From positions 128,836,001-128,900,000 of the forward strand of contig OZ024744.1 in assembly GCA_964016885.1 (NCBI GenBank): a DNA stretch of 64,000 nt. The letters are read 5' to 3'. Made by a program: the position numbers and the translations under genes. Positions 1-64,000 of this stretch are shown one piece after another (the stretch's first letter is position 1; every line of letters starts with the position of its first letter). The notes under the pieces were generated by a model. It had not been told where the DNA came from and searched no databases. It saw only the letters and a program-made list of their open reading frames with translations. Origin of the DNA: Eledone cirrhosa (lineage: Eukaryota).

Positions 1-1748
1 TAAGTTAAGTTGGGGTTAATTTAATTTGGGGTTAAGTTAAGTTAGGGTTAAGTTAAGTTGGGGTTGAGTTAAGTTGGGGTTAAGTTAAGTTGGGGTTATG
101 TTAAGTTGGGGTTAAGTTAAGTTGGGGTTAAGTTAAGTTGGGGTTCAATTAAGTTGCGGATAATTTAAGTTGGGGTTAAGTTAAGTTGGGGTTAAGTTAA
201 GTTGGGGTTAATTTAAGTTGGGGTTAAATTAAGTTGGGGTTAAATTAAGTTGGGGTTAAGTTAAGTTGGGGTTATGTTAAGTTGGTGTTAAGTTAAGTTG
301 GGGTTAAGTTAAGTTGGGGTTAAGTTAGGTTGGTGTTAATTTAAGTTGGGGGTAAGTTAAGTTGGGGTAAGTTAAGTTGGTGTTAAGTTAAGTTGGGGTT
401 AAGTTAAGTTGGGGTTAAGTTAAGTTGGGGTTCAATTAAGTTGCGGGTAATTTAAGTTGGGGTTAAGTTAAGTTGGGGGTAAGTTAAGTTGGGGTTAAGT
501 TAAGTTGGGGTTAAGTTAAGTCGGGGTTAATTTAAGTTGCGGTTAAGTTAAGTTGGGGTTAAGTTAAGTTGGGGTTAAGTTAAGTTGGGATTAAGTTAAG
601 TTGGGGTTAAGTTAAGTTGGGGTTGAGTTAAGTTGGGGTTAAGTTAGATTATTGTTAATTTATTTTGGGGTTAAGTTAAGTTGGGGTTAAGTTAAGTTGG
701 GGTTAATTTAAGTTGGGGTTAAGTTAAGTGGGGGTTAAGTTGAGTTGGGGTTAAGTTAAGTTGGGGTTAAGTTAAGTTGGGGTTAAGATAAGTTGGGGTT
801 AAGTTAAGTTGGGGTTGAGTTAAGTTCGGGTTGAGTTAATTTGGGGTTAACTTAAGTTGGGGTTAACTTAAGTTGGGGTTAAGTTAAGTTGGGTTTATGT
901 TAAGTTGGGGATAAGTTAAGTTGGGGTTAAGTTAAGTTGGGGTTCAATTAAGTTGCGGTTAATTTAAGTTGGGGTTAAGTTAAGTTGGGGTTAAGTTAAG
1001 TTGGGGTTAAGTTAAGTTGGGGTTAAATTAAGTAAGGGCTAAGTTAAGTTGAGGTTATGTTAAGTTGGTGTTAAGTTAAGTTGGGGTTAAGTTAAGTTGG
1101 GGTTAAGTTAAGTTGGGGTTTAAGTTAAGTTGGGGTTAAGTTAAGTTGGGGTTAATTTAATTTGGGGTTAAGTTAAGTTAGGGTTAAGTTAAGTTGGGGT
1201 TGAGTTAAGTTGGGGTTAAGTTAAGTTGGGGTTATGTTAAGTTGGGGATAAGTTAAGTTGGGGTTAAGTTAAGTTGGGGTTCAATTAAGTTGCGGTTAAT
1301 TTAAGTTGGGGTTAAGTTAAGTTCGGGTTAAGTTAAGTTGGGGTTAAGTTAAGTTGGGGTTAAATTAAGTTAGGGCTAAGTTAAGTTGAGGTTATGTTAA
1401 GTTGGTGTTAAGTTAAGTTGGGGTTAAGTTAAGTTGGGGTTAAGTTAAGTTGGGGTTAAGTTAAGTTGGGTTTAAGTTAAGTTGGGGCTAAGTTAAGTTG
1501 GGGTTAAGTTAAGTTGGGGTTAAGTTAAGTTGGGGTTAAGTTAGGTTGGTGTTAAGTTAAGTTGGGGGTAAGTTAAGTTGGGGGTAAGTTAAGTTGGTGT
1601 TAAGTTAAGTTGGGGTTAAGTTAAGTTGGGGCTAAGTTAAGTTGGGTTTAAGTTAAGTTGGGTCTAAGTTAAGTTGGGGTTAAGTTAAGTTGGGGTTAAC
1701 TTAAGTTGGGGGTAAGTTAAGTTGGGTTTGAGTTAAGTTGGGGTTAAG
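1..1748 (+). repeat. G-rich 16-bp tandem satellite (TTAAGTTAAGTTGGGG)n, block 1 (open at window start)
   Basis: Continuous head-to-tail 16-mers with scattered point variants; the consensus has no C on the + strand; the block ends at ...GGGGTTAAG|TTAGGTTTTTCGAAA. Confidence 0.98.
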
Positions 1749-4700
1749 TTAGGTTTTTCGAAAACCTTATATAATCAATTTTTTTTAGGTTTTTCGAAAA
1801 ATGTTATATAATCAATTTTTTTTAGGTTTTTCGAAAAACCTTATATAATCAATTTTTTTTTAGGTTTTTCGAAACACCTTATATAATCAATTTTTTTTAG
1901 GTTTTTCGAAAAACCTTATATAATTAATTTTTTTTAGGTTTTTCGAAAAACCTTATATAATCAATTTCTTTAGGTTTTTCGTAAAACCTTATATAATCAA
2001 TTTTTTTAGGTTTTTCGAAAAACCTTATATAATCAATTATTTTTAGGTTTTTCGAAATACCTTATATAATTAATTTTTTTTAGGTTTTTCGAAAAATCTT
2101 ATATAATTAATTTATATCTGATTTCAAATATTGATTTTTTTAGGTTTTTCGAAAACCTTATATAATCAATTTTTTTTAGGTTTTTCGAAAAAGAATGAAT
2201 TCATATTCGAAATATATACTTCTGCATTAATCTTTTTACGTTTTTCTGATTTTTTGCATGTTTTGAAATTTAAAAAAAACGTAAAAAATTAATGCTTTTA
2301 CAAATATTTTGAAATATTTACTTTCTGGTTTCAAATTTTGCAAATTAAATTTTTTTCTAAAAAAATCAGTTTTCGAAATCAGAAGTTAATATTTCGAAAA
2401 ACGCAATTTAAAAAACTCATATTAATTTTTTTTCGAATGAAGTTTTTTTATGCTTTTAGAAATATTTATATCTGATTTAAAATATTGATTTTTTTAGGTT
2501 TACCTTATATAATCAAACAAATTTTTTTAGGTTTTTCGAAATATCTTATATAATCAATTTTTTTTAGGTTTTTCGAAAAAGAATGAATTTGAGTTCATAG
2601 TCGAAATATATACTTCTGCATTAATCTTTGATTTTTTGCATGTTTTGAAATCTAAAAAAAACGTAAAAAATTAATGCTTTTACAAATATTTTGAAATATT
2701 TACTTTCTGGTTTCTAAGTTTGCAAATTAAATTTTTTTCAAAAAACCTAAAAAAAATCAGTTTTTGAAATCAGAAGTTAATATTTCGAAAAACGCAATTT
2801 GAAAAACTCATATTAATTTTTTTTCGAATGAAGTTTTTTATACTTTTAGAAATATTTATATCTGATTTCAAATATTGATTTTTTTAGGTTTTTCGAAAAA
2901 GAATGAATTTGAGTTCATAGTCGAAATATATATTTCTGCATTAATCTTTTTACGTTTTTCTGATTTTTTGCATGTTTTGAAATTTAAAAAAAACGTAAAA
3001 AATCAATATTTCGAAAAACGCAATTTGAAAAACTCATATTCATTTTTTTTCGAATGAATTCTTTCATACTTTTAGAAATATTTATATCTGATTTTAAATA
3101 TTGATTTTTTTAGGTTTACCTTATATAATCAAATTTTTTTAGGTTTTTCGAAAAAGAATGAATTTGAGTTCATAGTCGAAATATATACTTCTGCATTAAT
3201 CTTTTTACGTTTTTCTGATTTTTTGCATGTTTTGAAATTTAAAAAAAAACGTAAAAAATTAATGGTTTTACAAATATTTTGAAATATTTACTTTCTGGTT
3301 TCGAATTTTGCAAATTAAATTTTTTTCGAAAAAAACCTAAAAAAATCAGTTTTCGAAATCAGAAGTTAATATTTCGAAAAACGCAATTTGAAAAACTCAT
3401 ATTAATTTTTTTTCGAATGAAGTTTTTTTATGCTTTTAGAAATATTTATATCTGATTTCAAATATTGATTTTTTTTAGGTTTTTCGAAAAAGAATGAATT
3501 TGAGTTCATAGTCGAAATATATATTTCTGCATTGATCTTTGATTTTTTGCATGTTTTGAAATTTAAAAAAAAAGTAAAAAATTAATGCTTTTACAAATAT
3601 TTTGAAATATTTACTTTCTGGTTTCAAAGTTTGCAAATTAAATTTTTTTCGAAAAACCTAAAAAAATCAGTTTTCGAAATCAGAAGTTAATATTTCGAAA
3701 AACGCAATTTTAAAAACTCATATTAATTTTTTTTCGAATGAATTCTTTCATACTTTTAGAAATATTTATATCTGATTTCAAATATTGATTTTTTTTAGGT
3801 TTTTCGAAAAATCTTATATAATCAATTTTTTTTAGGTTTTTCGAAAAAGAATGAATTTGAGTTCATAGTCGAAATATATACTTCTGCATTAATCTTTGAT
3901 TTTTTGCATGTTTTGAAATTTAAAAAAAACGTAAAAAAACAATATTTCGAAAAACGCAATTTGAAAAACTCATATTAATTTTTTTTCGAATGAATTCTTT
4001 TATACTTTTAGAAATATTTATATCTGATTTTAAATATTGATTTTTTTAGGTTTACCTTATATAATCAAATTTTTTTAGGTTGTTCGAAAAATCTTATATA
4101 ATCAAATTTTTTTAGGTTTTTCGAAAAAGAATTTGAGTTCATAGTCGAAATATATACTTCTGCATTAATCTTTTTACGTTTTTCTGATTTTTTGCATGTT
4201 TTGAAATTTAAAAAAAACGTAAAAAATTAATGCTTTTACAAATATTTTGAAATATTTACTTTCTGGTTTCAAATTTTGTAAATTAAATTTTTTTCGAAAA
4301 ACCTAAAAAAATCAGTTTTCGAAATCAGAAGTTAATATTTCGAAAAACGCAATTTAAAAAACTCATATTAATTTTTTTTCGAATGAATTCTTTTAGAAAT
4401 ATTTATATCTGATTTCAAATATTGATTTTTTTAGGTTTACCTTATATAATCAAATATTTTTAGGTTTTTCAAAAACCTTATATAATCAATTTTTTTTAGG
4501 TTTTTCGAAAAACCTTACATAATCAATTTTTTTTAGGTTTTTTCGAAAAACCTTATATAATCAATTTTTTACGTTTTTAGAAAAACCTTATATAATCAAT
4601 TTTTTTTATACTTTTAGAAATATTTATATCTTATTTCAAATATTGATTTTTTTTAGATTTTTCGAAATACCTTATATAATCAATTTTTCTAGGTGTTTCG

Positions 4701-4828
4701 AAAAACCTTATATAATCAATTTTTTTTAGGTTTTTCGAAAGACCTTATATAATCAATTTTTTTTAGGTTTTTCGAAAAACCTTATATAATCAATTTTTTT
4801 AGGTTTTTCGACAACCTTATATAATCAA
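1749..4828 (+). repeat. AT-rich composite repeat island 1 (~3.08 kb): ~36-bp palindromic monomers flanking ~255-360-bp palindromic units
   Basis: About 10 copies of TTAGGTTTTTCGAAAAACCTTATATAATCAATTTTTT at 1749-2110. The long-unit marker (GAAT)GAATTTGAGTTCATAG recurs at about 2581, 2901, 3157, 3492, 3849 and 4129. The 36-mers return at about 4430-4828. The island ends CGACAACCTTATATAATCAA|GTTGAG. Confidence 0.95.
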
Positions 4829-7800
4829 GTTGAGTTGGGGTTAAGTTAATTGGGGTTAAATTAAGTTAGGGTTGAGTTAAGTTGGGGTTAAGTTAAGTTG
4901 GGGTTATATTAAGTTGGGGTTAAGTTAAGTTGAGGTTAAGTAAAGTTGGGGTTCAGTTAAGTTGGGGTTAAGTTAAGTTAGGCTTAACTTAAGTTGGGGT
5001 TAATTTAAGTTGGGGGTGAGTTAAGTTGGGGGTAAGTTAAGTTGGGGTTAAGTTAAGTTGGGGTTAAGTTGGGGTTAAGTTAATTTAGGGTTAAGTTAAG
5101 TTGGGGTTGAGTTAAGTTGGGGTTAAGTTAAGTGGTGGTTATGTTAAGTTGGGGTTAAGTTAAGTTGGGGTTAATTTAAATTGGGGTTAATTTAACTTTG
5201 TGGTTAAGTTAATTTGGGGTTAATTTAAGTTGGGGTTAAGTTAAGTTGGCATTGAGTTAAGCTGGGGTTAAGTTAAGTTGGGGTTAAAATAAGTTGGGGT
5301 TAAGTTAAGTTGGGGTTGAGTTAAGTTGGGGTTGAGTTAATTTGGGGTTAAGTTAAGTTGGGGTTAACTTAAGTTGGGTTTAATTTAAGTTGGGGTTAAG
5401 TTAAGTTGGGGTTATAATTAAGTTGGGGTTAAGTTAAGTTGGGGGTAAGATAAGTTGGGGTTAGTTAAGTTGCGGTTAAGTTAAGTTGGGGTTAAGTTAA
5501 GTTGGGGTTAAGTTAAGTTGGGGTTAAGTTAAGTTGGGGTTAATTTAAGTTGGGGTAAAGTTAAGTTGGGGGTAAGTTAAGTTGGGGTTAAGTTAAGTTG
5601 GGGTTAAGTTGGGGTTAAGTTAAGTTAGGGTTAACTTAAGTTGGGGTTGTGTTAAGTGGTGGTTATGTTAAGTGGTGGTTATGTTAAGTTGGGGTTAAGT
5701 TAAGTTGGGGTTAAGTTAAATTGGGGTTAAGTTAAGTTGCGGTTAAGTTAAGTTGGGGTTAAGTTAAGTTGGGGTTAAGTTAATTAGGGTTAAGTTAAGT
5801 TGGGGTTAAGTTAAGTTGGGGTTAAGTTAAGTTGGGGTTAAGTTAATTTGTGGTTAAGTTAAGTTGGGGTTAAGTTAAGTTGGGGTTAAGTTAAGTTGGG
5901 GATAAGTTAAGTTGAGGATAAGTTAAGTTGGGGTTAATTAAGTTGGGTTTAAGTTAAGTTGGGGTTAAGTTAAGTTGGGGTTAAGTTAAGTGGGGTTAAG
6001 TTAAGTTGGTTAGTTAAGTTGAGTTTAAGTTAAGTTGGGGTTAATTTAATTTGGGGTTAAGTTAAGTTGGGGTTAAGTTAATTTGGGGTTAAGTTAAGTT
6101 GGGGTTCAGTTAAGTTGGGGTTAAGTTAAGTTGGGGTTAAGTTGGGGTAAAATTAAGTTGGGGTTAAGTTAAGTTGCGGTTAAGTTAAAATGAGGTTAAG
6201 TTAAGTTGGGGTTAAGTTAAGTTGGGGTTAAGTTAAGTTGGGGCTAAGTTAAGTTGGGGCTAAGTTAAGTTGGGGCTAAGTTAAGTTGGGGTTAAGTTAA
6301 CTTTGGGTTAAGTTAAGTTGGGGTTAAGTTAAGTTGGGGTTAAGTTAAGGTGGGGTTAAGTTAAGTTGGGGTCAACTTAAGTTGGGGTTAAGTTAAGTTG
6401 GGGTTAACTTAAGTTGGGGTTAAGTTAAGTTGGGGTTAAGTTAAGTTGGGGTTAAGTTAAGTTGGGGTTACGTTAAGTTGGGGGTAAGTTAAGTTGGGGT
6501 TATGTTAAGTTGGGGTTACGTTAAGTTGGGTTTAAGTTAAGTTGGGGTTAAGTTAAGTTGGGGTTAAGTTAAGTTGGGGTTAATTTAAGTTGGGGTTAAG
6601 TTAAGTTGGGCTTAATTTAAGTTGGGGTTAAGTTAAGTTGGGGTTAAGTTAAGTTGGGGTTAAATTAAGTTGGGGTTAAGTTAAGTTGGGGTTAAGTTAA
6701 TTTGGGGTTAAGTTAAGTTAGGGTAAAGTTAAGTTGGGGTTGAGTTAAGTTGGGGTAAGTTAAGTAGGGGTTAAGTTAAGTTGGGGTTAAGTTAAGTTGG
6801 GGTTAAGTTAATTTAGGCTTAACTTAAGTTGGGGTTAAGTTAAGTTGGGGGTGAGTTAAGTTGGGGGTAAGTTAAGTTGGGGTTAAGTTAAGTTGGGGTT
6901 AAGTTGGGGTTAAGTTAAGTTAGGGTTAAGTTAATTTGGGGTTGAGTTAAGTTGGGGTTAAGTTAAGTGGTGGTTATGTTAAGTTGGGGTTAAGTTAAGT
7001 TGGGGTTAATTTAAATTGGGGTTAATTTAAATTTGTTGTTAAGTTAAGTTGGGGTTAATTTAAGTTGGGGTTAAGTTAAGTTGGGGTTGAGTTACGTTAT
7101 GGTTGAGTGAAGTTGGGGTTAAGTTAAGTTGGGGTTAAATTAAGTTGGGGTTAAGTTAAGTTGGGGTTGAGTTAAGTTGGGGTTAATTTAAGTTGGGGCT
7201 AAGTTAATTTGGGGTTAAGTTAAGTTGGGGTTAAATTAAGTTGGGGTTAAGTTAAGTTGGGGTTAAGTTAAGTTGGGGTTAAGTTAATTTGGGGTTAAGT
7301 GAAGTTAGGGTTAAGTTAAGTTGGGGCTGAGTTAAGTTGGGGGTAAGTTAAGTTGGGGTTATGTTAAGTTGGGGTTAAGTTAAGTTGGGGTTAAGTTAAG
7401 TTGGGGTTCAGTTAAGTTGCGGTTAAGTTAAGTTGGGGTTAAGTTAAGTTGGGGTTAAGTTAAGTTGGGGTTAATTTAAGTTGGGGTTAAGTTAAGTTGG
7501 GGTTAAGTTAAGTTGGGGTTAAATTCAGTCGGGGTTAAGTTAAGTCGGGGTTAAGTTACGTTGGGGTTAAGTTAAGTTGGGGTTAAGTTAAGTTGGGGTT
7601 GAGTTAAGTTGGGGTTAAGTTAAGTTGGGGTTAAGTTAAGTTGGGGTTAAGTTAAGTTGGGGTTAATTTAAGTTGGGGTTAATTTAAGTTGGGGTTAAGT
7701 TAAGTTGGGGTTAAGTTAAGTTGGGGTAACGTTAAGTTGGGGGTAAGTTAAGTTGGGGTTAAGTTAAGTTGGGGTTAAGTTGGGGTTAAGTTAAGTTAGG

Positions 7801-10800
7801 GTTAACTTAAGTTGGGGTTGTGTTAAGTGGTGGTTATGTTAAGTGGTGGTTATGTTAAGTTGGGGTTAAGTTAAGTTGGGGTTAAGTTAAGTTGGGGTTA
7901 AGTTAAGTTGGGGTTAAGTTAATTAGGGTTAAGTTAAGTTGGGTTTAAGTTAAGTTGGGTTTAAGTTAATTTGTGGTTAAGTTAAGTTGGGGTTAAGTTA
8001 AGTTGGGGTTAAGTTAAGTTGGGGATAAGTTAAGTTGGGGATAAGTTAAGTTGGGGTTAATTAAGTTGGGTTTAAGTTAAGTTGGGGTTAAGTTAAGTCG
8101 GGGTTAAGTTAAGTTGGGGTTAAGTTAAGTTGGTTAGTTAAGTTGAGTTTAAGTTAAGTTGGGGTTAATTTAAGTTGGGGTTAAGTTAAGTTGGGGTTAA
8201 GTTAAGTTGGGGTTAAGTTAAGTTGGGGTTCAGTTAAGTTGGGGTTAAGTTAAGTTGGGGTTAAGTTGGGGTAAAATTAAGTTGGGGTTAAGTTAAGTTA
8301 GGGTTAACTTAAGTTGGGGTTGTGTTAAGTGGTGGTTATGTTAAGTGGTGGTTATGTTAAGTTGGGGTTAAGTTAAGTTGGGGTTAAGTTAAGTTGGGGT
8401 TAAGTTAAGTTGGGGTTAAGTTAATTAGGGTTAAGTTAAGTTGGGTTTAAGTTAAGTTGGGTTTAAGTTAATTTGTGGTTAAGTTAAGTTGGGGTTAAGT
8501 TAAGTTGGGGTTAAGTTAAGTTGGGGATAAGTTAAGTTGGGGATAAGTTAAGTTGGGGTTAATTAAGTTGGGTTTAAGTTAAGTTGGGGTTAAGTTAAGT
8601 CGGGGTTAAGTTAAGTTGGGGTTAAGTTAAGTTGGTTAGTTAAGTTGAGTTTAAGTTAAGTTGGGGTTAATTTAAGTTGGGGTTAAGTTAAGTTGGGGTT
8701 AAGTTAAGTTGGGGTTAAGTTAAGTTGGGGTTCAGTTAAGTTGGGGTTAAGTTAAGTTGGGGTTAAGTTGGGGTAAAATTAAGTTGGGGTTAAGTTAAGT
8801 TGGGGTTAAGTTAAGTTGCGGTTAAGTTAAGTTGCCGTTAAGTTAAGTTGAGGTTAAGTTAAGTTGGGGTTAAGTTAAGTTGGGGTTAAGTTAAGTTGGG
8901 GCTAAGTTAAGTTGGGGCTAAGTTAAGTTGGGGTTAAGTTAACTTTGGGTTAAGTTAAGTTGGGTTTGAGTTAAGTTGGGGTTAATTAAGTTGGGGTTAA
9001 GTTAAGTTGGGGTTAAGTTGGGGTTAAGTTAAGTTGCGGTTAAGTTAAGTTGATGTTAAGTTAAGTTGGGGTTAAGTTAAGTTGGGGTTAAGTTAAGTTG
9101 GGGCTAAGTTAAGTTGGAGCTGAGTTAAGTTGGGGCTAAGTTAAGTTGGGGTTAAGTTAAGTTGGGGTTAAGTTAAGGTGGGGTTAAGTTAAGTTGGGGT
9201 CAACTTAAGTTGGGGTTAAGTTAAGTTGGGGTTAACTTAAGTTGGGGTTAAGTTAAGTTGGGGTTAAGTTAAGTTGGGGTTAAGTTAAGTTGGGGTTACG
9301 TTAAGTTGGGGGTAAGTCAAGTTGGTGTTAAGTTAAGTTGGCGGTAAGTTAAGATGGGGTTAAGTTAAGTTGGGGTTAATTTAATTTGGGGTTAAGTTAA
9401 GTTAGGGTTAAGTTAAGTTGGGGTTGAGTTAAGTTGGGGTTAAGTTAAGTTGGGGTTATGTTAAGTTGGGGTTAAGTTAAGTTGGGGTTAAGTTAAGTTG
9501 GGGTTATGTTAAGTTGGGGTTAAGTTAAGTTGGGGTTAAGTTAAGTTGGGGTTCAATTAAGTTGGGGTTAAGTTAAGTTGGGGTTATGTTAAGTTGGTGT
9601 TAAGTTAAGTTGGGGTTAAGTTAAGTTGGGGTTAAGTTAGGTTGGTGTTAATTTAAGTTGGGGGTAGGTTAAGTTGGGGTAAGTTAAGTTGGTGTTAAGT
9701 TAAGTTGGGGTTAAGTTAAGTTGGGGTTAAGTTAAGTTGGGTTTAAGTTAAGTTGGGGCTAAGTTAAGTTAGGGCTAAGTTAAGTTGGGGTTAAGTAAAG
9801 TTAGGGCTAAGTTAAGTTGGGGTTAAGTTAAGTTGGGGTTAATTTAAGTTGGGGTTACATTAAGTTGATGTTAAGTTAAGTTGGGGTTAAGTTAAGTTGG
9901 GGTTAAGTTAAGTTGGGGTTAAATTAAGTTGGGGTTAAATTAAGTTGGGGTTAAGTTAAGTTGGGGTTAAGTTAGGTTGGTGTTAAGTTAAGTTGGGGTT
10001 AAGTTAATTTGTGGTTAAGTTAAGTTGGGGTTAAGTTAAGTTGGGGTTAAGTTCAGTCGGGGTTAAGTTAAGTCGGGGTTAAGTTAAGTTGGGGTTAAGT
10101 TAAGTTGCGGTTAAGTTAAGTTGGGGTTAATTTAAGTTGGGGTTAAGTTAATTAGGGTTAAGTTAAGTTGGTGTTAAGTTAAGTTGGGGTTAAGTTAAGT
10201 TGGGGTTAAGTTAAGTTGGGTTTAAGTTAAGTTGGGGCTAAGTTAAGTTAGGGCTAAGTTAAGTTGGGGTTAAGTTAAGTTGGGGTTAATTTAAGTTGGG
10301 GTTACATTAAGTTGAGGTTAAGTTAAGTTGTGGTTAAGTTAAGTTAGGGTTAATTTAAGTTAGGGTTATGTTAAGTTGGGGTTAAGTTAAGTTGGGGTTA
10401 AGTTAGGTTGGTGTTAAGTTAAGTTGGGGTTAAGTTAAGTTGGGGTTATGTTAAGTTGGGGTTAAGTTAAGTTGGGGTTAAGTTAAGTTAGGGTTGAGTT
10501 AAGTTGGGGTTGAGTTAAGTTGGGGTTGAGTGAAGTTGGGGTTAAGTTAAGTTGGGGTTAAATTAAGTTGGGGTTAAGTTAAGTTGGGGTTGAGTTAAGT
10601 TGGGGTTAATTTAAGTTGGGTTTAAGTTAAGTTGGGTTTAAGTTAAGTTGGGGTTGAATTAAGTTGGGGTTAAATTAAGTTGGGGTTAAGTTAAGTTGGG
10701 GGTAAGTTAAGTTGGGGGCAAGTTAAGTTGGGGTTAAGTTAAGTTGGGGTTAAGTTAAGTTGGGGTTAATTTAAGTTGGGGTTATGTTAAGTTGGGGTTA

Positions 10801-48600: not shown

Positions 48601-49046
48601 TTAGAAAAACCTTATATAATCAATTTTTTTTATACTTTTAGAAATATTTATATCTAATTTCAAATATTGATTTTTTTTAGATTTTTCGAAATACCTTATA
48701 TAATCAATTTTTCTAGGTGTTTCGAAAAACCTTATATAATCAATTTTTTTTAGGTTTTTCGAAAGACCTTATATAATCAATTTTTTTTAGGTTTTTCGGA
48801 AAACCTTATATAATCAATTTTTTTTATACTTTTAGAAATATTTATATCTAATTTCAAATATTGATTTTTTTTAGATTTTTCGAAATACCTTATATAATCA
48901 ATTTTTCTAGGTGTTTCGAAAAACCTTATATAATCAATTTTTTTTAGGTTTTTCGAAAGACCTTATATAATCAATTTTTTTTAGGTTTTTCGAAAAACCT
49001 TATATAATCAATTTTTTTAGGTTTTTCGACAACCTTATATAATCAA
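45662..49046 (+). repeat. AT-rich composite repeat island 4 (~3.39 kb)
   Basis: Same junctions; has about 155 extra bp near the 5' end and a ~194-bp tandem duplication near the 3' end relative to island 1. Confidence 0.95.
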
Positions 49047-55000: not shown

Positions 55001-58000
55001 AGTTGGGGTTAAGTTAAGTTGGTTAGTTAAGTTGAGTTTAAGTTAAGTTGGGGTTAATTTAAGTTGGGGTTAAGTTAAGTTGGGGTTAAGTTAAGTTGGG
55101 GTTAAGTTAAGTTGGGGTTCAGTTAAGTTGGGGTTAAGTTAAGTTGGGGTTAACTTGGGGTAAAATTAAGTTGGGGTTAAGTTAAGTTGGGGTTAAGTTA
55201 AGTTGCGGTTAAGTTAAGTTGCCGTTAAGTTAAGTTGAGGTTAAGTTAAGTTGGGGTTAAGTTAAGTTGGGGTTAAGTTAAGTTGGGGCTAAGTTAAGTT
55301 GGGGCTAAGTTAAGTTGGGGTTAAGTTAACTTTGGGTTAAGTTAAGTTGGGTTTGAGTTAAGTTGGGGTTAATTAAGTTGGGGTTAAGTTAAGTTGGGGT
55401 TAAGTTGGGGTTAAGTTAAGTTGCGGTTAAGTTAAGTTGATGTTAAGTTAAGTTGGGGTTAAGTTAAGTTGGGGTTAAGTTAAGTTGGGGCTAAGTTAAG
55501 TTGGAGCTGAGTTAAGTTGGATCTAAGTTAAGTTGGGGTTAAGTTAAGTTGGGGTTAAGTTAAGGTGGGGTTAAGTTAAGTTGGGGTCAACTTAAGTTGG
55601 GGTTAAGTTAAGTTGGGGTTAACTTAAGTTGGGGTTAAGTTAAGTTGGGGTTAAGTTAAGTTGGGGTTAAGTTAAGTTGGGGTTACGTTAAGTTGGGGGT
55701 AAGTCAAGTTGGTGTTAAGTTAAGTTGGCGGTAAGTTAAGATGGGGTTAAGTTAAGTTGGGGTTAATTTAATTTGGGGTTAAGTTAAGTTAGGGTTAAGT
55801 TAAGTTGGGGTTGAGTTAAGTTGGGGTTAAGTTAAGTTGGGGTTATGTTAAGTTGGGGTTAAGTTAAGTTGGGGTTAAGTTAAGTTGGGGTTCAATTAAG
55901 TTGCGGATAATTTAAGTTGGGGTTAAGTTAAGTTGGGGTTAAGTTAAGTTGGGGTTAAGTTAAGTTGGGGTTAAATTAAGTTGGGGTTAAATTAAGTTGG
56001 GGTTAAGTTAAGTTGGGGTTATGTTAAGTTGGTGTTAAGTTAAGTTGGGGTTAAGTTAAGTTGGGGTTAAGTTAGGTTGGTGTTAATTTAAGTTGGGGGT
56101 AAGTTAAGTTGGGGTAAGTTAAGTTGGTGTTAAGTTAAGTTGGGGTTAAGTTAAGTTGGGGTTAAATTAAGTTGGGGTTAAGTTAAGTTGGGGTTGAGTG
56201 AAGTTGGGGTTAAGTTAAGTTGGGGTTAAGTAAAGTTAGGGCTAAGTTAAGTTGGGGTTAAGTTAAGTTGGGGTTAATTTAAGTTGGGGTTACATTAAGT
56301 TGATGTTAAGTTAAGTTGGGGTTAAGTTAAGTTGGGGTTAAATTAAGTTGGGGTTAAATTAAGTTGGGGTTAAGTTAAGTTGGGGTTAAGTTAGGTTGGT
56401 GTTAAGTTAAGTTGGGGTTAAGTTAATTTGTGGTTAAGTTAAGTTGGGGTTAAGTTAAGTTGGGGTTAAGTTAATTAGGGTTAAGTTAAGTTGGGGTTAA
56501 GTTAAGTTGGGGTTAAGTTAAGTTGGGGTTAAGTTAAGTTGGGGTTAAGTTAAGTTGGGGTTAAGTTAATTTGGGGTTAAGTTAAGTTAGGGTAAAGTTA
56601 AGTTGGGGTTGAGTTAAGTTGGGGTAAGTTAAGTTGGGGTTAAGTTAAGTTTGGGTTAAGTTAAGTTGGGGTTAAGTTAAGTTAGGCTTAACTTAAGTTG
56701 GGGTTAAGTTAAGTTGGGGGTGAGTTAAGTTGGGGGTAAGTTAAGTTGGGGTTAAGTTAAGTTGGGGTTAAGTTGGGGTTAAGTTAAGTTAGGGTTAAGT
56801 TAATTTGGGGTTGAGTTAAGTTGGGGTTAAGTTAAGTGGTGGTTATGTTAAGTTGGGGTTAAGTTAAGTTGGGGTTAATTTAAATTGGGGTTAATTTAAA
56901 TTTGTTGTTAAGTTAAGTTGGGGTTAATTTAAGTTGGGGTTAAGTTAAGTTGGGGTTGAGTTAAGTTGTGGTTGAGTGAAGTTGGGGTTAAGTTAAGTTG
57001 GGGTTAAATTAAGTTGGGGTTAAGTTAAGTTGGGGTTGAGTTAAGTTGGGGTTAATTTAAGTTGGGGCTAAGTTAATTTGGGGTTAAGTTAAGTTGGGGT
57101 TAAATTAAGTTGGGGTAAGTTAAGTTGGGGTTAAGTTAAGTTTGGGTTAAGTTAAGTTGGGGTTAAGTTAAGTTAGGCTTAACTTAAGTTGGGGTTAAGT
57201 TAAGTTGGGGGTGAGTTAAGTTGGGGGTAAGTTAAGTTGGGGTTAAGTTAAGTTGGGGTTAAGTTGGGGTTAAGTTAAGTTAGGGTTAAGTTAATTTGGG
57301 GTTGAGTTAAGTTGGGGTTAAGTTAAGTGGTGGTTATGTTAAGTTGGGGTTAAGTTAAGTTGGGGTTAATTTAAATTGGGGTTAATTTAAATTTGTTGTT
57401 AAGTTAAGTTGGGGTTAATTTAAGTTGGGGTTAAGTTAAGTTGGGGTTGAGTTAAGTTGTGGTTGAGTGAAGTTGGGGTTAAGTTAAGTTGGGGTTAAAT
57501 TAAGTTGGGGTTAAGTTAAGTTGGGGTTGAGTTAAGTTGGGGTTAATTTAAGTTGGGGCTAAGTTAATTTGGGGTTAAGTTAAGTTGGGGTTAAATTAAG
57601 TTGGGGTTAAGTTAAGTTGGGGTTAAGTTAAGTTGGGGTTAAGTTAATTTGGGGTTAAGTGAAGTTAGGGTTAAGTTAAGTTGGGGCTGAGTTAAGTTGG
57701 GGGTAAGTTAAGTTGGGGTTATGTTAAGTTGGGGTTAAGTTAAGTTGGGGTTAAGTTAAGTTGGGGTTCAGTTAAGTTGCGGTTAAGTTAAGTTGGGGTT
57801 AAGTTAAGTTGGGGTTAAGTTAAGTTGGGGTTAATTTAAGTTGGCGTTAAGTTAAGTTGGGGTTAAGTTAAGTTGGGGTTAAATTCAGTCGGGGTTAAGT
57901 TAAGTCGGGGTTAAGTTACGTTGGGGTTAAGTTAAGTTGGGGTTAAGTTAAGTTGGGGTTGAGTTAAGTTGGGGTTAAGTTAAGTTGGGGTTAAGTTAAG

Positions 58001-60292
58001 TTGGGGTTAAGTTAAGTTGGGGTTAAGTTAAGTTGGGGTTAATTTAAGTTGGGGTTAAGTTAAGTTGGGCTTAAGTTAAGTTGGGGTAACGTTAAGTTGG
58101 GGGTAAGTTAAGTTGGGGTTAAGTTAAGTTGGGGTTAAGTTGGGGTTAAGTTAAGTTAGGGTTAACTTAAGTTGGGGTTGTGTTAAGTGGTGGTTATGTT
58201 AAGTGGTGGTTATGTTAAGTTGGGGTTAAGTTAAGTTGGGGTTAAGTTAAGTTGGGGTTAAGTTAAGTTGGGGTTAAGTTAATTAGGGTTAAGTTAAGTT
58301 GGGTTTAAGTTAAGTTGGGGTTAAGTTAATTTGTGGTTAAGTTAAGTTGGGGTTAAGTTAAGTTGGGGTTAAGTTAAGTTGGGGATAAGTTAAGTTGGGG
58401 ATAAGTTAAGTTGGGGTTAATTAAGTTGGGTTTAAGTTAAGTTGGGGTTAAGTTAAGTCGGGGTTAAGTTAAGTTGGGGTTAAGTTAAGTTGGTTAGTTA
58501 AGTTGAGTTTAAGTTAAGTTGGGGTTAATTTAAGTTGGGGTTAAGTTAAGTTGGGGTTAAGTTAAGTTGGGGTTAAGTTAAGTTGGGGTTCAGTTAAGTT
58601 GGGGTTAAGTTAAGTTGGGGTTAACTTGGGGTAAAATTAAGTTGGGGTTAAGTTAAGTTGGGGTTAAGTTAAGTTGCGGTTAAGTTAAGTTGCCGTTAAG
58701 TTAAGTTGAGGTTAAGTTAAGTTGGGGTTAAGTTAAGTTGGGGTTAAGTTAAGTTGGGGCTAAGTTAAGTTGGGGCTAAGTTAAGTTGGGGTTAAGTTAA
58801 CTTTGGGTTAAGTTAAGTTGGGTTTGAGTTAAGTTGGGGTTAATTAAGTTGGGGTTAAGTTAAGTTGGGGTTAAGTTGGGGTTAAGTTAAGTTGCGGTTA
58901 AGTTAAGTTGATGTTAAGTTAAGTTGGGGTTAAGTTAAGTTGGGGTTAAGTTAAGTTGGGGCTAAGTTAAGTTGGAGCTGAGTTAAGTTGGATCTAAGTT
59001 AAGTTGGGGTTAAGTTAAGTTGGGGTTAAGTTAAGGTGGGGTTAAGTTAAGTTGGGGTCAACTTAAGTTGGGGTTAAGTTAAGTTGGGGTTAACTTAAGT
59101 TGGGGTTAAGTTAAGTTGGGGTTAAGTTAAGTTGGGGTTAAGTTAAGTTGGGGTTACGTTAAGTTGGGGGTAAGTCAAGTTGGTGTTAAGTTAAGTTGGC
59201 GGTAAGTTAAGATGGGGTTAAGTTAAGTTGGGGTTAATTTAATTTGGGGTTAAGTTAAGTTAGGGTTAAGTTAAGTTGGGGTTGAGTTAAGTTGGGGTTA
59301 AGTTAAGTTGGGGTTATGTTAAGTTGGGGTTAAGTTAAGTTGGGGTTAAGTTAAGTTGGGGTTCAATTAAGTTGCGGATAATTTAAGTTGGGGTTAAGTT
59401 AAGTTGGGGTTAAGTTAAGTTGGGGTTAAGTTAAGTTGGGGTTAAATTAAGTTGGGGTTAAATTAAGTTGGGGTTAAGTTAAGTTGGGGTTATGTTAAGT
59501 TGGTGTTAAGTTAAGTTGGGGTTAAGTTAAGTTGGGGTTAAGTTAGGTTGGTGTTAATTTAAGTTGGGGGTAAGTTAAGTTGGGGTAAGTTAAGTTGGTG
59601 TTAAGTTAAGTTGGGGTTAAGTTAAGTTGGGGTTAAATTAAGTTGAGGTTAAGTTAAGTTGGGGTTGAGTGAAGTTGGGGTTAAGTTAAGTTGGGGTTAA
59701 GTAAAGTTAGGGCTAAGTTAAGTTGGGGTTAAGTTAAGTTGGGGTTAATTTAAGTTGGGGTTACATTAAGTTGATGTTAAGTTAAGTTGGGGTTAAGTTA
59801 AGTTGGGGTTAAGTTAAGTTGGGGTTAAATTAAGTTGGGGTTAAATTAAGTTGGGGTTAAGTTAAGTTGGGGTTAAGTTAGGTTGGTGTTAAGTTAAGTT
59901 GGGGTTAAGTTAATTAGGGTTAAGTTAAATTGGGGTTAAGTTAAGTTGGGGTTAAGTTAAGTTGGGGTTAAGTTAAGTTGGGTTTAAGTTAAGTTGGGGC
60001 TAAGTTAAGTTAGGGCTAAGTTAAGTTGGGGTTAAGTTAAGTTGGGGTTAATTTAAGTTGGGGTTACATTAAGTTGAGGTTAAGTTAAGTTGTGGTTATG
60101 TTAAGTTAGGGTTAATTTAAGTTAGGGTTATGTTAAGTTGGGGTTAAGTTAAGTTGGGGTTAAGTTAGGTTGGTGTTAAGTTAAGTTGGGGTTAAGTTAA
60201 GTTGGGGTTATGTTAAGTTGGGGTTAAGTTAAGTTGGGGTTAAGTTAAGTTGGGGGTAAGTTAAGTTGGGTTTGAGTTAAGTTGGGGTTAAG
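49047..60292 (+). repeat. 16-bp satellite block 5 (~11.2 kb)
   Basis: Same monomer; about 52860-60292 matches 38100-45661. Confidence 0.98.
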
Positions 60293-63200
60293 TTAGGTTT
60301 TTCGAAAACCTTATATAATCATTTTTTTTTAGGTTTTTCGAAACACCTTATATAATCAATTTTTTTATGTTTTTCGAAAAATCTTATATAATCATTTTTT
60401 TTATACTTTTAGAAATATTTATATCTGATTTCAAATATTTATTTTTCTAGGTTTTTCAAAAAACCTTATATAATCAATTTTTTTTAGGTTTTTCGAAAAA
60501 TGTTATATAATCAATTTTTTTTAGGTTTTTCGAAAAACCTTATATAATCAATTTTTTTTTAGGTTTTTCGAAACACCTTATATAATCAATTTTTTTTAGG
60601 TTTTTCGAAAAACCTTATATAATCAATTTTTTTAGGTTTTTCGAAAAACCTTATATAATCAATTTTTTTAGGTTTTTCGTAAAACCTTATATAATCAATT
60701 TTTTTAGGTTTTTCGAAAAACCTTATATAATCAATTTTTTTTAGGTTTTTCGAAATACCTTATATAATTAATTTTTTTTAGGTTTTTCGAAAAATCTTAT
60801 ATAATTAATTTATATCTGATTTCAAATATTGATTTTTTTAGGTTTTTCGAAAACCTTATATAATCAATTTTTTTTAGGTTTTTCGAAAAAGAATGAATTC
60901 ATATTCGAAATATATACTTCTGCATTAATCTTTTTACGTTTTTCTGATTTTTTGCATGTTTTGAAATTTAAAAAAAACGTAAAAAATTAATGCTTTTACA
61001 AATATTTTGAAATATTTACTTTCTAGTTTCAAATTTTGCAAATTAAATTTTTTTCTAAAAAAATCAGTTTTCGAAATCAGAAGTTAATATTTCGAAAAAC
61101 GCAATTTAAAAAACTCATATTAATTTTTTTTCGAATGAAGTTTTTTTATGCTTTTAGAAATATTTATATCTGATTTAAAATATTGATTTTTTTAGGTTTA
61201 CCTTATATAATCAAATTTTTTTAGGTTTTTCGAAAAAGAATGAATTTGAGTTCATAGTCGAAATATATACTTCTGCATCAATCTTTGATTTTTTGCATGT
61301 TTTGAAATCTAAAAAAAACGTAAAAAATTAATGCTTTTACAAATATTTTGAAATATTTACTTTCTGGTTTCAAAGTTTGCAAATTAAATTTTTTTCGAAA
61401 AACCTAAAAAAATCAGTTTTCGAAATTAGAAGTTAATATTTCGAAAAACGCAATTTGAAAAACTCATATTAATTTTTTTTCGAATGAAGTTTTTTATACT
61501 TTTAGAAATATTTATATCTGATTACAAATATTGATTTTTTTAGGTTTTTCGAAAAGTCTTATATAATCAATTTTTTTTAGGTTTTTCGAAAAAGAATGAA
61601 TTTGAGTTCATAGTCGAAATATATATTTCTGCACTAATCTTTTTACGTTTTTCTGATTTTTTGCATGTTTTGAAATTTAAAAAAAACGTAAAAAATCAAT
61701 ATTTTGAAAAACGCAATTTGAAAAACTCATATTAATTTTTTTTCGAATGAATTCTTTCATACTTTTAGAAATATTTATATCTGATTTTAAATATTGATTT
61801 TTTTAGGTTTACCTTATATAATCAAATTTTTTTAGGTTTTTCGAAAAAGAATGAATTTGAGTTCATAGTCGAAATATATACTTCTGCATTAATCTTTTTA
61901 CGTTTTTCTGATTTTTTGTATGTTTTGAAATTTAAAAAAAAACGTTATAAATTAATGCTTTTACAAATATTTTGAAATATTTACTTTCTGGTTTCGAATT
62001 TTGCAAATTAAATTTTTTTCGAAAAACCTAAAAAAATCAGTTTTCGAAATCAGAAGTTAATATTTCGAAAAACGCAATTTGAAAAACTCATATTAATTTT
62101 TTTTCGAATGAAGTTTTTTTATGCTTTTAGAAATATTTATATCTGATTTCAAATATTGATTTTTTTTAGGTTTTTCGAAAAAGAATGAATTTGAGTTCAT
62201 AGTCGAAATACATATTTCTGCATTGATCTTTGATCTTTTGTATGTTTTGAAATTTAAAAAAAACGTAAAAAATTAATGCTTTTACAAATATTTTGAAATA
62301 TTTACTTTCTGGTTTCAAAGTTTGCAAATTAAATTTTTTTCGAAAAACCTAAAAAAATCAGTTTTCGAAATCAGAAGTTAATATTTCGAAAAACGCAATT
62401 TGAAAAACTCATATTAATTTTTTTTCGAATGAAGTTTTTTTATGCTTTTAGAAATATTTATATCTGATTTCAAATATTGATTTTTTTAGGTTTTTCGAAA
62501 AATCTTATATAATCAATTTTTTTTAGGTTTTTCGAAAAAGAATGAATTTGAGTTCATAGTCGAAATATATACTTCTGCATTAATCTTTGATTTTTTGCAT
62601 GTTTTGAAATTTAAAAAAAACGTAAAAAATTAATATTTCGAAAAACGCAATTTGAAAAACTCATATTAATTTTTTTTCGAATGAATTCTTTTATACTTTT
62701 AGAAATATTTATATCTGATTTTAAATATTGATTTTTTTAGGTTTACCTTATATAATCAAATTTTTTTAGGTTGTTCGAAAAATCTTATATAATCAAATCT
62801 TTTTAGGTTTTTCGAAAAAGAATTTGAGTTCATAGTCGAAATATATACTTCTGCATTAATCTTTTTACGTTTTTCTGATTTTTTGCATGTTTTGAAATTT
62901 AAAAAAAACGTAAAAAATTAATGCTTTTACAAATATTTTGAAATATTTACTTTCTGGTTTCAAATTTTGCAAATTAAATTTTTTTCGAAAAACCTAAAAA
63001 AATCAGTTTTCGAAATCAGAAGTTAATATTTCGAAAAACGCAATTTAAAAAACTCATATTAATTTTTTTTCGAATGAATTCTTTTAGAAATATTTATATC
63101 TGATTTCAAATATTGATTTTTTTAGGTTTACCTTATATAATCAAATTTTTTTAGGTTTTTCAAAAACCTTATATAATCAATTTTTTTTAGGTTTTTCGAA

Positions 63201-63713
63201 AAACCTTACATAATCAATTTTTTTTAGGTTTTTTCGAAAATCCTTATATAATCAATTTTTTACGTTTTTAGAAAAACCTTATATAATCAATTTTTTTTAT
63301 ACTTTTAGAAATATTTATATCTAATTTCAAATATTGATTTTTTTTAGATTTTTCGAAATACCTTATATAATCAATTTTTCTAGGTGTTTCGAAAAACATT
63401 ATATAATCAATTTTTTTTAGGTTTTTCGAAAGACCTTATATAATCAATTTTTTTTAGGTTTTTCGGAAAACCTTATATAATCAATTTTTTTTATACTTTT
63501 AGAAATATTTATATCTAATTTCAAATATTGATTTTTTTTAGATTTTTCGAAATACCTTATATAATCAATTTTTCTAGGTGTTTCGAAAAACCTTATATAA
63601 TCAATTTTTTTTAGGTTTTTCGAAAGACCTTATATAATCAATTTTTTTTAGGTTTTTCGAAAAACCTTATATAATCAATTTTTTTAGGTTTTTCGACAAC
63701 CTTATATAATCAA
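60293..63713 (+). repeat. AT-rich composite repeat island 5 (~3.42 kb)
   Basis: Near-identical to island 4, sharing private variants TTCTAGTTTC, GAAAAGTCTT, GCACTAATC and AACGTTATAA, with one extra 36-bp monomer. Confidence 0.95.
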
Positions 63714-64000
63714 GTTGAGTTTAAGTTAAGTTGGGATTAAGTTAAGTTGGGGTTAAGTTAAGATGGGGTTAAGTTATGTTGTGGTTAAGTTAAGTTGGGG
63801 TTAAATTAAGTTGGGGTTAAGTTAAGTTGGGGTTAAGTTAAGTTGGGGTTAAGTTAAGTTGGGGCTAAGTTAAGTTGGGGCTAAGTTAAGTTGGGGCTAA
63901 GTTAAGTTGGGGTTAAGTTAACTTTGGGTTAAGTTAAGTTGGGTTTGAGTTAAGTTGGGGTTAATTAAGTTGGGGTTAAGTTAAGTTGGGGTTAAGTTAA
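63714..64000 (+). repeat. 16-bp satellite block 6 (open at window end)
   Basis: Same monomer; matches 49047 onward. Confidence 0.97.

What the first reader, a model, noticed from the sequence alone, without database searches (positions are those of the whole stretch)
1..64000. Composite cassette of telomere-like G-rich repeat plus palindromic AT-rich island, amplified as a macro-repeat: candidate recombination-maintained telomere or centromere system
Seen: 8-17-kb tracts of a single-polarity G-rich 16-mer alternate with one family of 2-3.4-kb islands. All islands share orientation and junctions, and their starts are 14798, 10179, 18936 and 14631 bp apart. Established parallels: yeast Y' elements between TG1-3 tracts in type I telomerase-null survivors, C. 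elegans TALT templates flanked by telomeric repeats, long complex terminal satellites of telomerase-less Diptera, and composite terminal repeats of Meloidogyne. Drosophila centromeres, where complex islands sit in simple satellite, give an alternative reading. Inference: this may be a natural ALT-like chromosome-end array with the end lying to the right, or a centromeric array. The sequence alone cannot distinguish these from inert satellite.
Basis: partly seen in the sequence, partly recalled or inferred. Interest (0 to 1): 0.75.

Follow-up and report, generated by a model that had tools for sequence, protein, structure and literature searches.

The report
Internal two-satellite mosaic, not a telomere
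The alternating blocks are real, but they lie inside an 8.4-million-base internal block of a 16-letter repeat in a likely octopus genome whose assembled chromosome tips carry the ordinary TTAGGG repeat, so this is not a new telomere system; the AT-rich islands are likely one stray piece of a second satellite that was copied along as the block grew, in what is likely centromere-region heterochromatin (untested).

Summary
Observation confirmed except 'single polarity' (two ~250-bp inverted blocks). The telomere/ALT reading fails. The window is C28:128.84-128.90 Mb of a 136.5-Mb scaffold, inside a 16-mer array at 126.967-135.348 Mb that ends 1.15 Mb before the scaffold end. Of 54 chromosome-scaffold ends, 10 carry correctly oriented TTAGGG and none the 16-mer; a TERT-like exon is present. 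The islands are non-coding tandem subunits (37, 45, ~270 bp) of an AT-rich satellite that forms stand-alone arrays on C18 and C21. Their 24-nt left junction occurs 59 times, only on C28, and 57 of these lie in two zones covering 21% of the array. Flanks are co-duplicated almost without change; no TSD, TIR or ORF. Best reading: one capture, then passive amplification by unequal exchange in likely pericentromeric heterochromatin. Sister 16-mer arrays lie mid-C2, mid-C3 (abutting interstitial telomere repeats) and on C18; CENP-A is untested. Closest known: Tribolium madens TmSat1/TmSat2, human Yq12. The scan noted this same array before in neighbouring windows, with the same reading.

The parts
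1..1748 (+). 16-mer satellite tract (G-rich strand +), part of the 8.4-Mb C28 array
1749..4828 (+). Island 1 (3080 bp): tandem subunits A (37 bp), B (45 bp), C (~270 bp, 7 full or partial copies) of the AT-rich satellite
4829..16546 (+). 16-mer tract, 11.7 kb
10894..11142 (-). Inverted (fold-back) 16-mer block of about 250 bp, both switches at TTAA palindromes
16547..18588 (+). Island 2 (2042 bp; 4 C-type units)
18589..26725 (+). 16-mer tract, 8.1 kb
21090..21338 (-). Second copy of the inverted block, inside a 2935-bp segment identical to 9123-12057
26726..29124 (+). Island 3 (2399 bp; 5 C-type units)
29125..45661 (+). 16-mer tract, 16.5 kb, with an internal 5911-bp duplication
45662..49046 (+). 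Island 4 (3385 bp; 7 C-type units)
49047..60292 (+). 16-mer tract, 11.2 kb
60293..63713 (+). Island 5 (3421 bp); 59930-63161 differs from 45299-48530 at 1 of 3232 bases
63714..64000 (+). 16-mer tract, continues beyond the window

Best explanation
The window is part of an internal 8.4-Mb satellite array in which a 2-3.4-kb piece of a second, AT-rich satellite was likely captured once and then likely copied passively, with its 16-mer flanks, by unequal exchange or template switching; the array is likely centromere-region heterochromatin, with no telomere role. Shown: internal position, TTAGGG at scaffold ends, stand-alone arrays of the island's subunits on C18 and C21, one shared left junction in 59 copies confined to C28, near-identical duplicated segments that span island plus flank, variable subunit numbers inside islands, small inversions copied the same way. 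Inferred: the single capture (junctions share only 3 and 2 bases with the satellite register, no TSD or TIR), the recombination mechanism, descent of the 16-mer from TTAGGG-like hexamers through an older 32-bp repeat, and the pericentromeric position. Untested: CENP-A binding, methylation, transcription.
For: Position: C28 is 136,499,333 bp; array edges at 126,967,460 and about 135,348,100; every probe between them was 16-mer or island. Ends: 10 of 54 carry TTAGGG (CCCTAA at 5 starts, TTAGGG at 5 ends), 0 of 54 the 16-mer. Donor-type arrays: A/B/C subunits without 16-mer at C18:12.846 to at least 13.063 Mb (C subunit 84-87% identical) and at C21:35.14-35.17 Mb inside another satellite; variants at C2:209.17-209.196 and 209.877 Mb. 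One origin: the 24-nt left junction has 59 exact copies, all on C28 (31 at 128.56-129.60, 26 at 132.04-132.74, 2 inverted at 124.64 Mb), with the same diagnostic flank variants. Passive copying: segments spanning flank plus island differ at 5 of 4569, 7 of 3244 and 1 of 3232 bases; spacing is irregular (median 15.6 and 13.5 kb, range 7.4-420 kb) and gaps of 1.6-2.6 Mb are junction-free (0 of 100000 uniform shuffles reach the largest gap). Islands have no stop-free frame above 68 aa, no TIR, no TSD. Heterochromatin setting: probes at C28 100, 115, 118, 120, 122, 124 Mb are other satellites; sister 16-mer arrays at 50% of C2, 49% of C3 and 11-23% of C18; octopod C-bands are mostly centromeric (PMC6160780, passages).
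Against: No chromatin data: the centromere-region claim rests on size and position alone. The long-perfect 16-mer was found on only 3 of 27 chromosome-size scaffolds (C3, C18, C28) plus a composite form on C2, so it is not a universal centromere repeat. On C2 the associated GC-rich repeat sits at two sites 34 Mb apart. 44 of 54 scaffold ends, both ends of C28 among them, lack TTAGGG, so true tips are not seen and scaffold order is taken on trust; the C3 array ends at a 200-N gap. A second island lineage (124.6 and 132 Mb) shares the left junction but has another right junction, so the history is more than one clean insertion. The islands could be the shrunken remnant of an AT block that lay between G-rich repeats, as on C18, rather than an insertion.
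Confidence: 0.72

Rival explanations
1. The array is the functional centromere of C28, and CENP-A would sit on the homogeneous 16-mer or on the island-bearing zones, whose short palindromes could form cruciforms.
For: 8.4-Mb homogeneous array with very recent block duplications; sister arrays near the midpoints of two giant scaffolds; island subunits form separate arrays at one region of C2, C18 and C21; a 75-nt island stretch folds at -12.2 kcal/mol against -3.1 for 64 nt of satellite (one example each, no shuffle control); architecture and sizes resemble the putative (peri)centromeres of Tribolium madens (PMC13081366, section 7 part 1).
Against: 16-mer arrays on only 4 of 27 scaffolds at the stringency used; junction on 1 of 27; islands in 21% of the array's span, in two zones 2.4 Mb apart; megabase telomere-like domains beside Arabidopsis centromeres exclude CENH3 (10.64898/2026.05.10.723265, section 7); a GC-rich repeat with 196-bp spacing (964 exact motif copies on at least C2, C4, C18) is a competing candidate.
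Confidence: 0.2
2. The array is an inert heterochromatic block unrelated to the centromere, like human Yq12, possibly on a sex chromosome.
For: Restricted distribution; C28 is satellite-rich over at least 100-136 Mb; Yq12 shows alternating satellites with tandem duplications across blocks (10.1101/2022.12.01.518724, passages). C28 is listed after the size-sorted scaffolds, as sex chromosomes often are (recalled; not tested).
Against: Sister arrays at the middle of C2 and C3, beside interstitial telomere repeats, fit fusion or centromere sites better than random blocks (inference). This rival shares the amplification mechanism with the best explanation and differs only in location.
Confidence: 0.3
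3. A recombination-maintained (ALT-like) chromosome end with the tip to the right.
For: G-rich strand mostly points towards the nearer scaffold end (58,445 forward against 6,136 reverse 36-mers genome-wide); the array is in the last 7% of C28; C28's own end lacks TTAGGG; the Telomerase_RBD search was blank (uninformative).
Against: 1.15 Mb of other sequence follows the array; inverted blocks; TTAGGG at 10 of 54 ends and 16-mer at none; TERT C-terminal exon in 3 copies on C27 over the Pfam cut-off and matching solved TERT chains; sister arrays are mid-chromosome.
Confidence: 0.02
4. The islands are a non-autonomous mobile element that targets the 16-mer.
For: About 60 copies inside one repeat type; TTAA-rich target.
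Against: All copies share one junction and the same flank variants; no TIR, TSD or ORF; none in the 16-mer arrays of C2, C3 or C18; the subunits are a tandem satellite elsewhere.
Confidence: 0.03

Closest known systems
Tribolium madens TmSat1/TmSat2 intermingled arrays (PMC13081366; abstract and section 7 part 1 read; lead from an earlier AI note)
   Same: Multi-megabase regions (up to 9.7 Mb) of long major arrays (median 14 kb) broken by short minor arrays (median 2.2 kb); conserved transition zones and inversion sites. Here: spacing median 15.6 kb, islands 2-3.4 kb, one conserved junction, repeated fold-backs.
   Different: There both satellites come from one ~110-bp element, cover all chromosomes and form kilobase-scale macro-dyads; here the two are unlike in sequence, the mosaic is on one scaffold, covers 21% of the array's span, and inversions in the window are ~250 bp.
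Human Yq12 heterochromatin, DYZ1/DYZ2 (10.1101/2022.12.01.518724; passages read; lead from an earlier AI note)
   Same: Two satellites alternate in a distal, non-telomeric block; tandem duplications span several blocks, attributed to unequal exchange.
   Different: Blocks there are 20-1600 kb and both satellites are major; here islands are a few kb and a small share of the array.
Megabase interstitial telomeric-repeat domains of Arabidopsis (10.64898/2026.05.10.723265; abstract and section 7 read)
   Same: Large internal telomere-like G-rich arrays near centromeres that grow in place by block duplication, independent of telomeres.
   Different: Those are mosaics of true telomere repeats and centromere repeats and were shown to lack CENH3; the 16-mer is not TTAGGG and its chromatin is unknown.
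Drosophila centromere islands (PMC6516634; abstract read)
   Same: Complex islands within simple satellite.
   Different: Those islands are retroelement-rich, one per centromere and CENP-A-bound; these are about 60 copies of non-coding satellite subunits on one scaffold.
C. elegans TALT (PMC4595603; abstract and opening read) and Meloidogyne composite terminal repeats (PMC10844300; abstract read)
   Same: A sequence block flanked by G-rich telomere-like repeats, amplified by recombination.
   Different: Both act at chromosome ends without telomerase; this array is internal, TTAGGG ends and a TERT-like exon are present.

Membership tests
Telomerase-independent composite telomere (Meloidogyne, TALT, yeast Y') | Located at chromosome ends | tested here: not met
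   Array ends 1.15 Mb before the scaffold end; 16-mer at 0 of 54 ends
Telomerase-independent composite telomere (Meloidogyne, TALT, yeast Y') | Canonical telomere repeat missing or replaced | tested here: not met
   TTAGGG at 10 of 54 ends, all in the expected polarity
Telomerase-independent composite telomere (Meloidogyne, TALT, yeast Y') | Telomerase absent | tested here: inconclusive
   TERT_C exon in 3 copies on C27 (38.8 bits, cut-off 27), best PDB matches all TERT (E 0.002-0.018); Telomerase_RBD search blank; whole gene not found
Telomerase-independent composite telomere (Meloidogyne, TALT, yeast Y') | Uniform G-strand polarity towards the end | tested here: not met
   Inverted blocks in the window, at 133.0 Mb and at the array's right edge
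Telomerase-independent composite telomere (Meloidogyne, TALT, yeast Y') | BAL31 sensitivity, reads ending in the repeat, terminal FISH | not testable with these tools
   No long raw reads were offered
Yeast Y' element | Encodes a helicase (recalled) | tested here: not met
   Longest stop-free frame in any island 68 aa
Drosophila-type centromere island | Island built of retroelements | tested here: not met
   Islands are fully tiled by subunits A, B, C; no ORF
Drosophila-type centromere island | CENP-A enrichment | not testable with these tools
   No chromatin data
Satellite-type centromere or pericentromere | Megabase homogeneous tandem array with recent block duplications | tested here: met
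   8.38 Mb, 94% mean monomer identity, near-identical kb-scale duplications
Satellite-type centromere or pericentromere | One region on most or all chromosomes | tested here: inconclusive
   16-mer on C2, C3, C18, C28; island family on C2, C18, C21, C28; exact-motif searches miss diverged variants and several listings were cut at 100 rows
Satellite-type centromere or pericentromere | CENP-A binding, primary constriction, methylation dip | not testable with these tools
   Needs CUT&Tag, FISH or raw long reads
T. madens-type intermingled satellites | Long major arrays broken by short minor arrays with conserved junctions | tested here: met
   against section 7 of PMC13081366
T. madens-type intermingled satellites | Both satellites from one subunit; macro-dyads of many kb; on all chromosomes | tested here: not met
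   Islands share no 8- or 10-mer with the 16-mer register in island-only bins; window inversions ~250 bp; junction only on C28
Non-autonomous DNA transposon | TIRs, target-site duplication, independent insertion sites | tested here: not met
Heterochromatic interstitial telomeric sequence | Array made of, or derived from, the telomere repeat | tested here: inconclusive
   The 16-mer is not TTAGGG, but the C3 array abuts degenerate CCCTAA repeats (probes at 184.60, 184.70, 184.755-184.769 Mb) and the C28 array passes in the same polarity into a hexamer-built 32-bp repeat; descent is inferred
rDNA intergenic spacer repeats | Present between rRNA units | tested here: not met
   No 16-mer, island or GC-rich repeat in the rDNA stretches of C4, C12, C25 (a few rows of C25 were cut from the output)

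The most novel reading that the evidence does not exclude
The array is the centromere of C28: a telomere-derived 16-bp satellite (TTAGGG to 32-mer to 16-mer) seeded with palindromic AT-rich islands that carry CENP-A, the same repeat set marking the fusion points of the giant chromosomes. It would be a first sequence-level cephalopod centromere and a case of a telomere-derived repeat taking centromere function.
Probability: 0.15. Interest if true: 0.65.

Novelty: new member of a known kind. Interest (0 to 1): 0.27.

Why it matters
As it stands it is a clear example of a satellite junction frozen and amplified inside a giant array, a kind known from beetles and the human Y. Its use is practical: it gives named probes (16-mer, AT-rich A/B/C repeat, 196-bp-spaced GC-rich repeat) and coordinates for locating cephalopod centromeres and for testing whether the four giant chromosomes are fusions. 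My searches found no paper with the 16-mer (none of five 16-letter terms) and none holding three of 'octopus', 'centromeric satellite', 'CENP-A', 'cephalopod chromosomes'; the library lacks most subscription papers. It is not a new telomere system.

Tried and rejected
rDNA spacer origin: rejected; only a broken 18S start lies at C28:126.0 Mb. Rfam over the window and 16 loci: no family in the window. Telomerase_RBD search blank with a blank control, uninformative; a motif scan of 60 kb around the TERT-like exon found no further TERT exon. A junction pattern with one A too many gave 0 matches; corrected. The genome-wide TTAGGG search listed only a C1 interstitial block, so ends were fetched one by one. 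Sequencing runs: no RNA holder listed. Three RAD-seq runs show both repeats but cannot test the junction. Contigs of one sample show the 16-mer at far higher summed depth than the islands, with island variants unlike the window's prevailing; one 108-nt contig of run X5 matches the left junction without a difference but has only 29 bases on the island side, under the tool's bridging rule, and may come from the source study. One run labelled as another organism holds pieces of both repeats (one run, small share, weak). No canonical G-quadruplex motif (loops 1-7) in the window; 422 with loops up to 12, not taken as evidence. Z-linkage of C28 and fusion origin of C1-C4 were not tested.


Full report
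Observation. The window is 64,000 bases without N. Tandem Repeats Finder shows a 16-bp array broken by five AT-rich islands. All 232 TTCGAA sites are in islands, and the four long gaps match the predicted digest. The 16-mer GGGGTTAAGTTAAGTT averages 94% identity over 2929 monomers. One claim fails: two inverted blocks of about 250 bp lie at 10894 and 21090, both switching at TTAA palindromes.

Anatomy of the islands. Each is tiled by three subunits: A (37 bp, with the palindrome GGTTTTTCGAAAAACC), B (45 bp) and C (about 270 bp, 4 to 7 full or partial copies). The A-rich ends and the C-B-A core vary in copy number. GC is 19%, the longest stop-free frame is 68 aa, the ends are not inverted repeats and no target duplication flanks them. 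The left junction shares 3 bases and the right 2 bases with the satellite register, which is weak evidence in such AT-rich DNA.

Where the window lies. It is G000:C28:128,836,001-128,900,000; C28 is 136,499,333 bp. The genome has 3.0 Gb and 27 chromosome-size scaffolds, four of 379-443 Mb. Molluscan hemocyanin genes with seven units in a row whose best single-unit matches are PDB 4yd9 and 1js8 (cephalopod origin and the seven-unit octopod state are recalled) make an octopod likely. The 16-mer array runs from 126,967,460 to about 135,348,100 (8.38 Mb); all probes between were 16-mer or island, though I read only a small part of it. Some probes are partly or wholly inverted (133.0 Mb). On the right it folds back and passes into an older 32-bp repeat, then other sequence for 1.15 Mb.

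Telomere test. I read 2 kb at all 54 ends of the 27 scaffolds: 10 carry TTAGGG, CCCTAA at five starts and TTAGGG at five ends; none carries the 16-mer. The other 44, both ends of C28 among them, stop in other sequence, so true tips are unseen there. A TERT C-terminal exon occurs three times on C27 above the Pfam cut-off and matches only TERT chains in the PDB (4 of 4); the RNA-binding domain search was blank and uninformative, and I did not find the rest of the gene. FISH in another octopus suggested TTAGGG (cited in PMC6160780, passages). TALT and the Meloidogyne repeats are defined by terminal position and absence of telomerase (abstracts). The ALT reading fails.

Origin of the islands. The same A, B, C subunits form a stand-alone array without 16-mer at C18:12.846 to at least 13.063 Mb, flanked by the 32-bp-type repeat, and a smaller one at C21:35.14-35.17 Mb within a different satellite; variants flank a composite array on C2. 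The 24-nt left junction has 59 exact copies, all on C28: 31 at 128.56-129.60 Mb, 26 at 132.04-132.74 Mb and 2 inverted at 124.64 Mb. Copies examined share diagnostic flank variants; the 132-Mb and 124.6-Mb lineage has another right junction. A few islands have lost the left junction (129.42 Mb), so 59 is a lower bound. The two zones cover 21% of the array's span and the largest junction-free gaps are 1.6, 2.4 and 2.6 Mb. The islands are therefore not a required part of the array.

How it grows. In the window, duplicated segments that span flank and island differ at 5 of 4569, 7 of 3244 and 1 of 3232 bases, and the inverted block lies inside a 2935-bp perfect duplicate. There is no fixed macro-unit: spacing ranges from 7.4 kb to 420 kb, median 15.6 kb. 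This is what unequal exchange or template switching in a tandem array would leave (inference; the same is proposed for Yq12, passages). One capture followed by passive copying is the simplest history; a shrunken remnant of an AT block between G-rich repeats is an equal alternative for the first step.

Centromere question. The 16-mer also forms arrays at C3:184.77-185.38 Mb (49% of the scaffold), C18:4.8 and 9.9-10.3 Mb, and a composite with a GC-rich repeat at C2:209.2-209.87 Mb (50%). The C3 array abuts degenerate CCCTAA repeats seen over at least 169 kb, and C1 has interstitial TTAGGG at 49%. This fits centromere or fusion sites and a telomere-like ancestry, TTAGGG to 32-mer to 16-mer (inference). 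Octopod heterochromatin is mostly centromeric. Against: a 102-nt perfect stretch occurs on only 3 of 27 scaffolds, the GC-rich repeat occurs at two distant sites on C2, and telomere-like megabase domains in Arabidopsis exclude CENH3 (section 7). I put pericentromeric or centromeric position at about 0.55-0.6, CENP-A on the array at about 0.2.

Comparison. It works like the intermingled satellites of Tribolium madens (major arrays median 14 kb, minor 2.2 kb, conserved junctions) and like Yq12, but is not a member of either family by sequence. It differs from Drosophila centromere islands, which are retroelement-rich (abstract). rDNA spacers lack these repeats. No paper in the library holds the 16-mer or describes an octopus centromeric satellite under the terms used.

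Earlier notes. After I had recorded my reading, the scan's index showed unreviewed AI notes on neighbouring windows of this array with the same conclusion. They gave me the Tribolium and Yq12 leads, which I read myself; they are not independent support. Their count of 12 chromosomes for the AT-rich family I could confirm for 4 only.

Verdict. Real, undescribed as a sequence, ordinary as a kind: a two-satellite mosaic in internal heterochromatin. Not a telomere system; a testable centromere-region marker. Interest 0.27.

Noticed in passing
G000:C3:184.60-184.769 Mb (L147, L148, L201, L202) and C1:217.9-218.1 Mb (L161): Long degenerate interstitial TTAGGG tracts near the midpoints of two giant scaffolds; C3's abuts the 16-mer array directly. 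Would fit end-to-end or centric fusions.
   Followed up: partly
C2:209.2-209.876 Mb (L059, L097, L098): A 0.68-Mb composite array of short 16-mer tracts alternating with pieces of a GC-rich palindromic repeat, flanked on both sides by AT-rich relatives of the island.
   Followed up: partly
C18:6.73-6.80+ Mb, C2:243.8-244.7 Mb, C4:247.4-247.5 Mb, C28:126.1-126.3 Mb (L066, L068, L153, L157, L158): GC-rich repeat with 196-bp spacing and nested inversions, 964 exact copies of one 37-nt motif; a competing centromere candidate.
   Followed up: partly
C28:135.348-135.371 Mb, C28:124.56 Mb, C18:12.844 and 13.075-13.10 Mb (L142-L144, L204, L166, L171, L200): Older 32-bp G-rich repeat built of telomere-like hexamers (72% matches) lining the edges of both the 16-mer and the AT-rich arrays; likely the 16-mer's precursor.
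   Followed up: partly
C27:13.14, 14.25 and 14.73 Mb (L162-L164): The TERT C-terminal exon is present in three copies with equal score, one on + and two on -; duplication or assembly redundancy not resolved.
   Followed up: no
C28:126.0 Mb (L028) and C18:6.730-6.734 Mb (L153): Broken, internally repeated rDNA fragments beside the GC-rich repeat on both scaffolds.
   Followed up: no
C28:128.585-128.586 Mb (L065): A truncated island folded back on itself, flanked by an inverted 16-mer block: a palindrome of about 1.5 kb centred in island DNA.
   Followed up: no
C21:35.137-35.32 Mb (L187-L193): The AT-rich array sits inside an unrelated ~20-bp G-rich satellite about 0.25 Mb from the scaffold end.
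   Followed up: no
C1:173.7-173.9 Mb, C26:21.9-22.0 Mb, C27:0.06 Mb: Several seven-unit hemocyanin gene copies, tandem on C1 and an inverted pair on C26.
   Followed up: no
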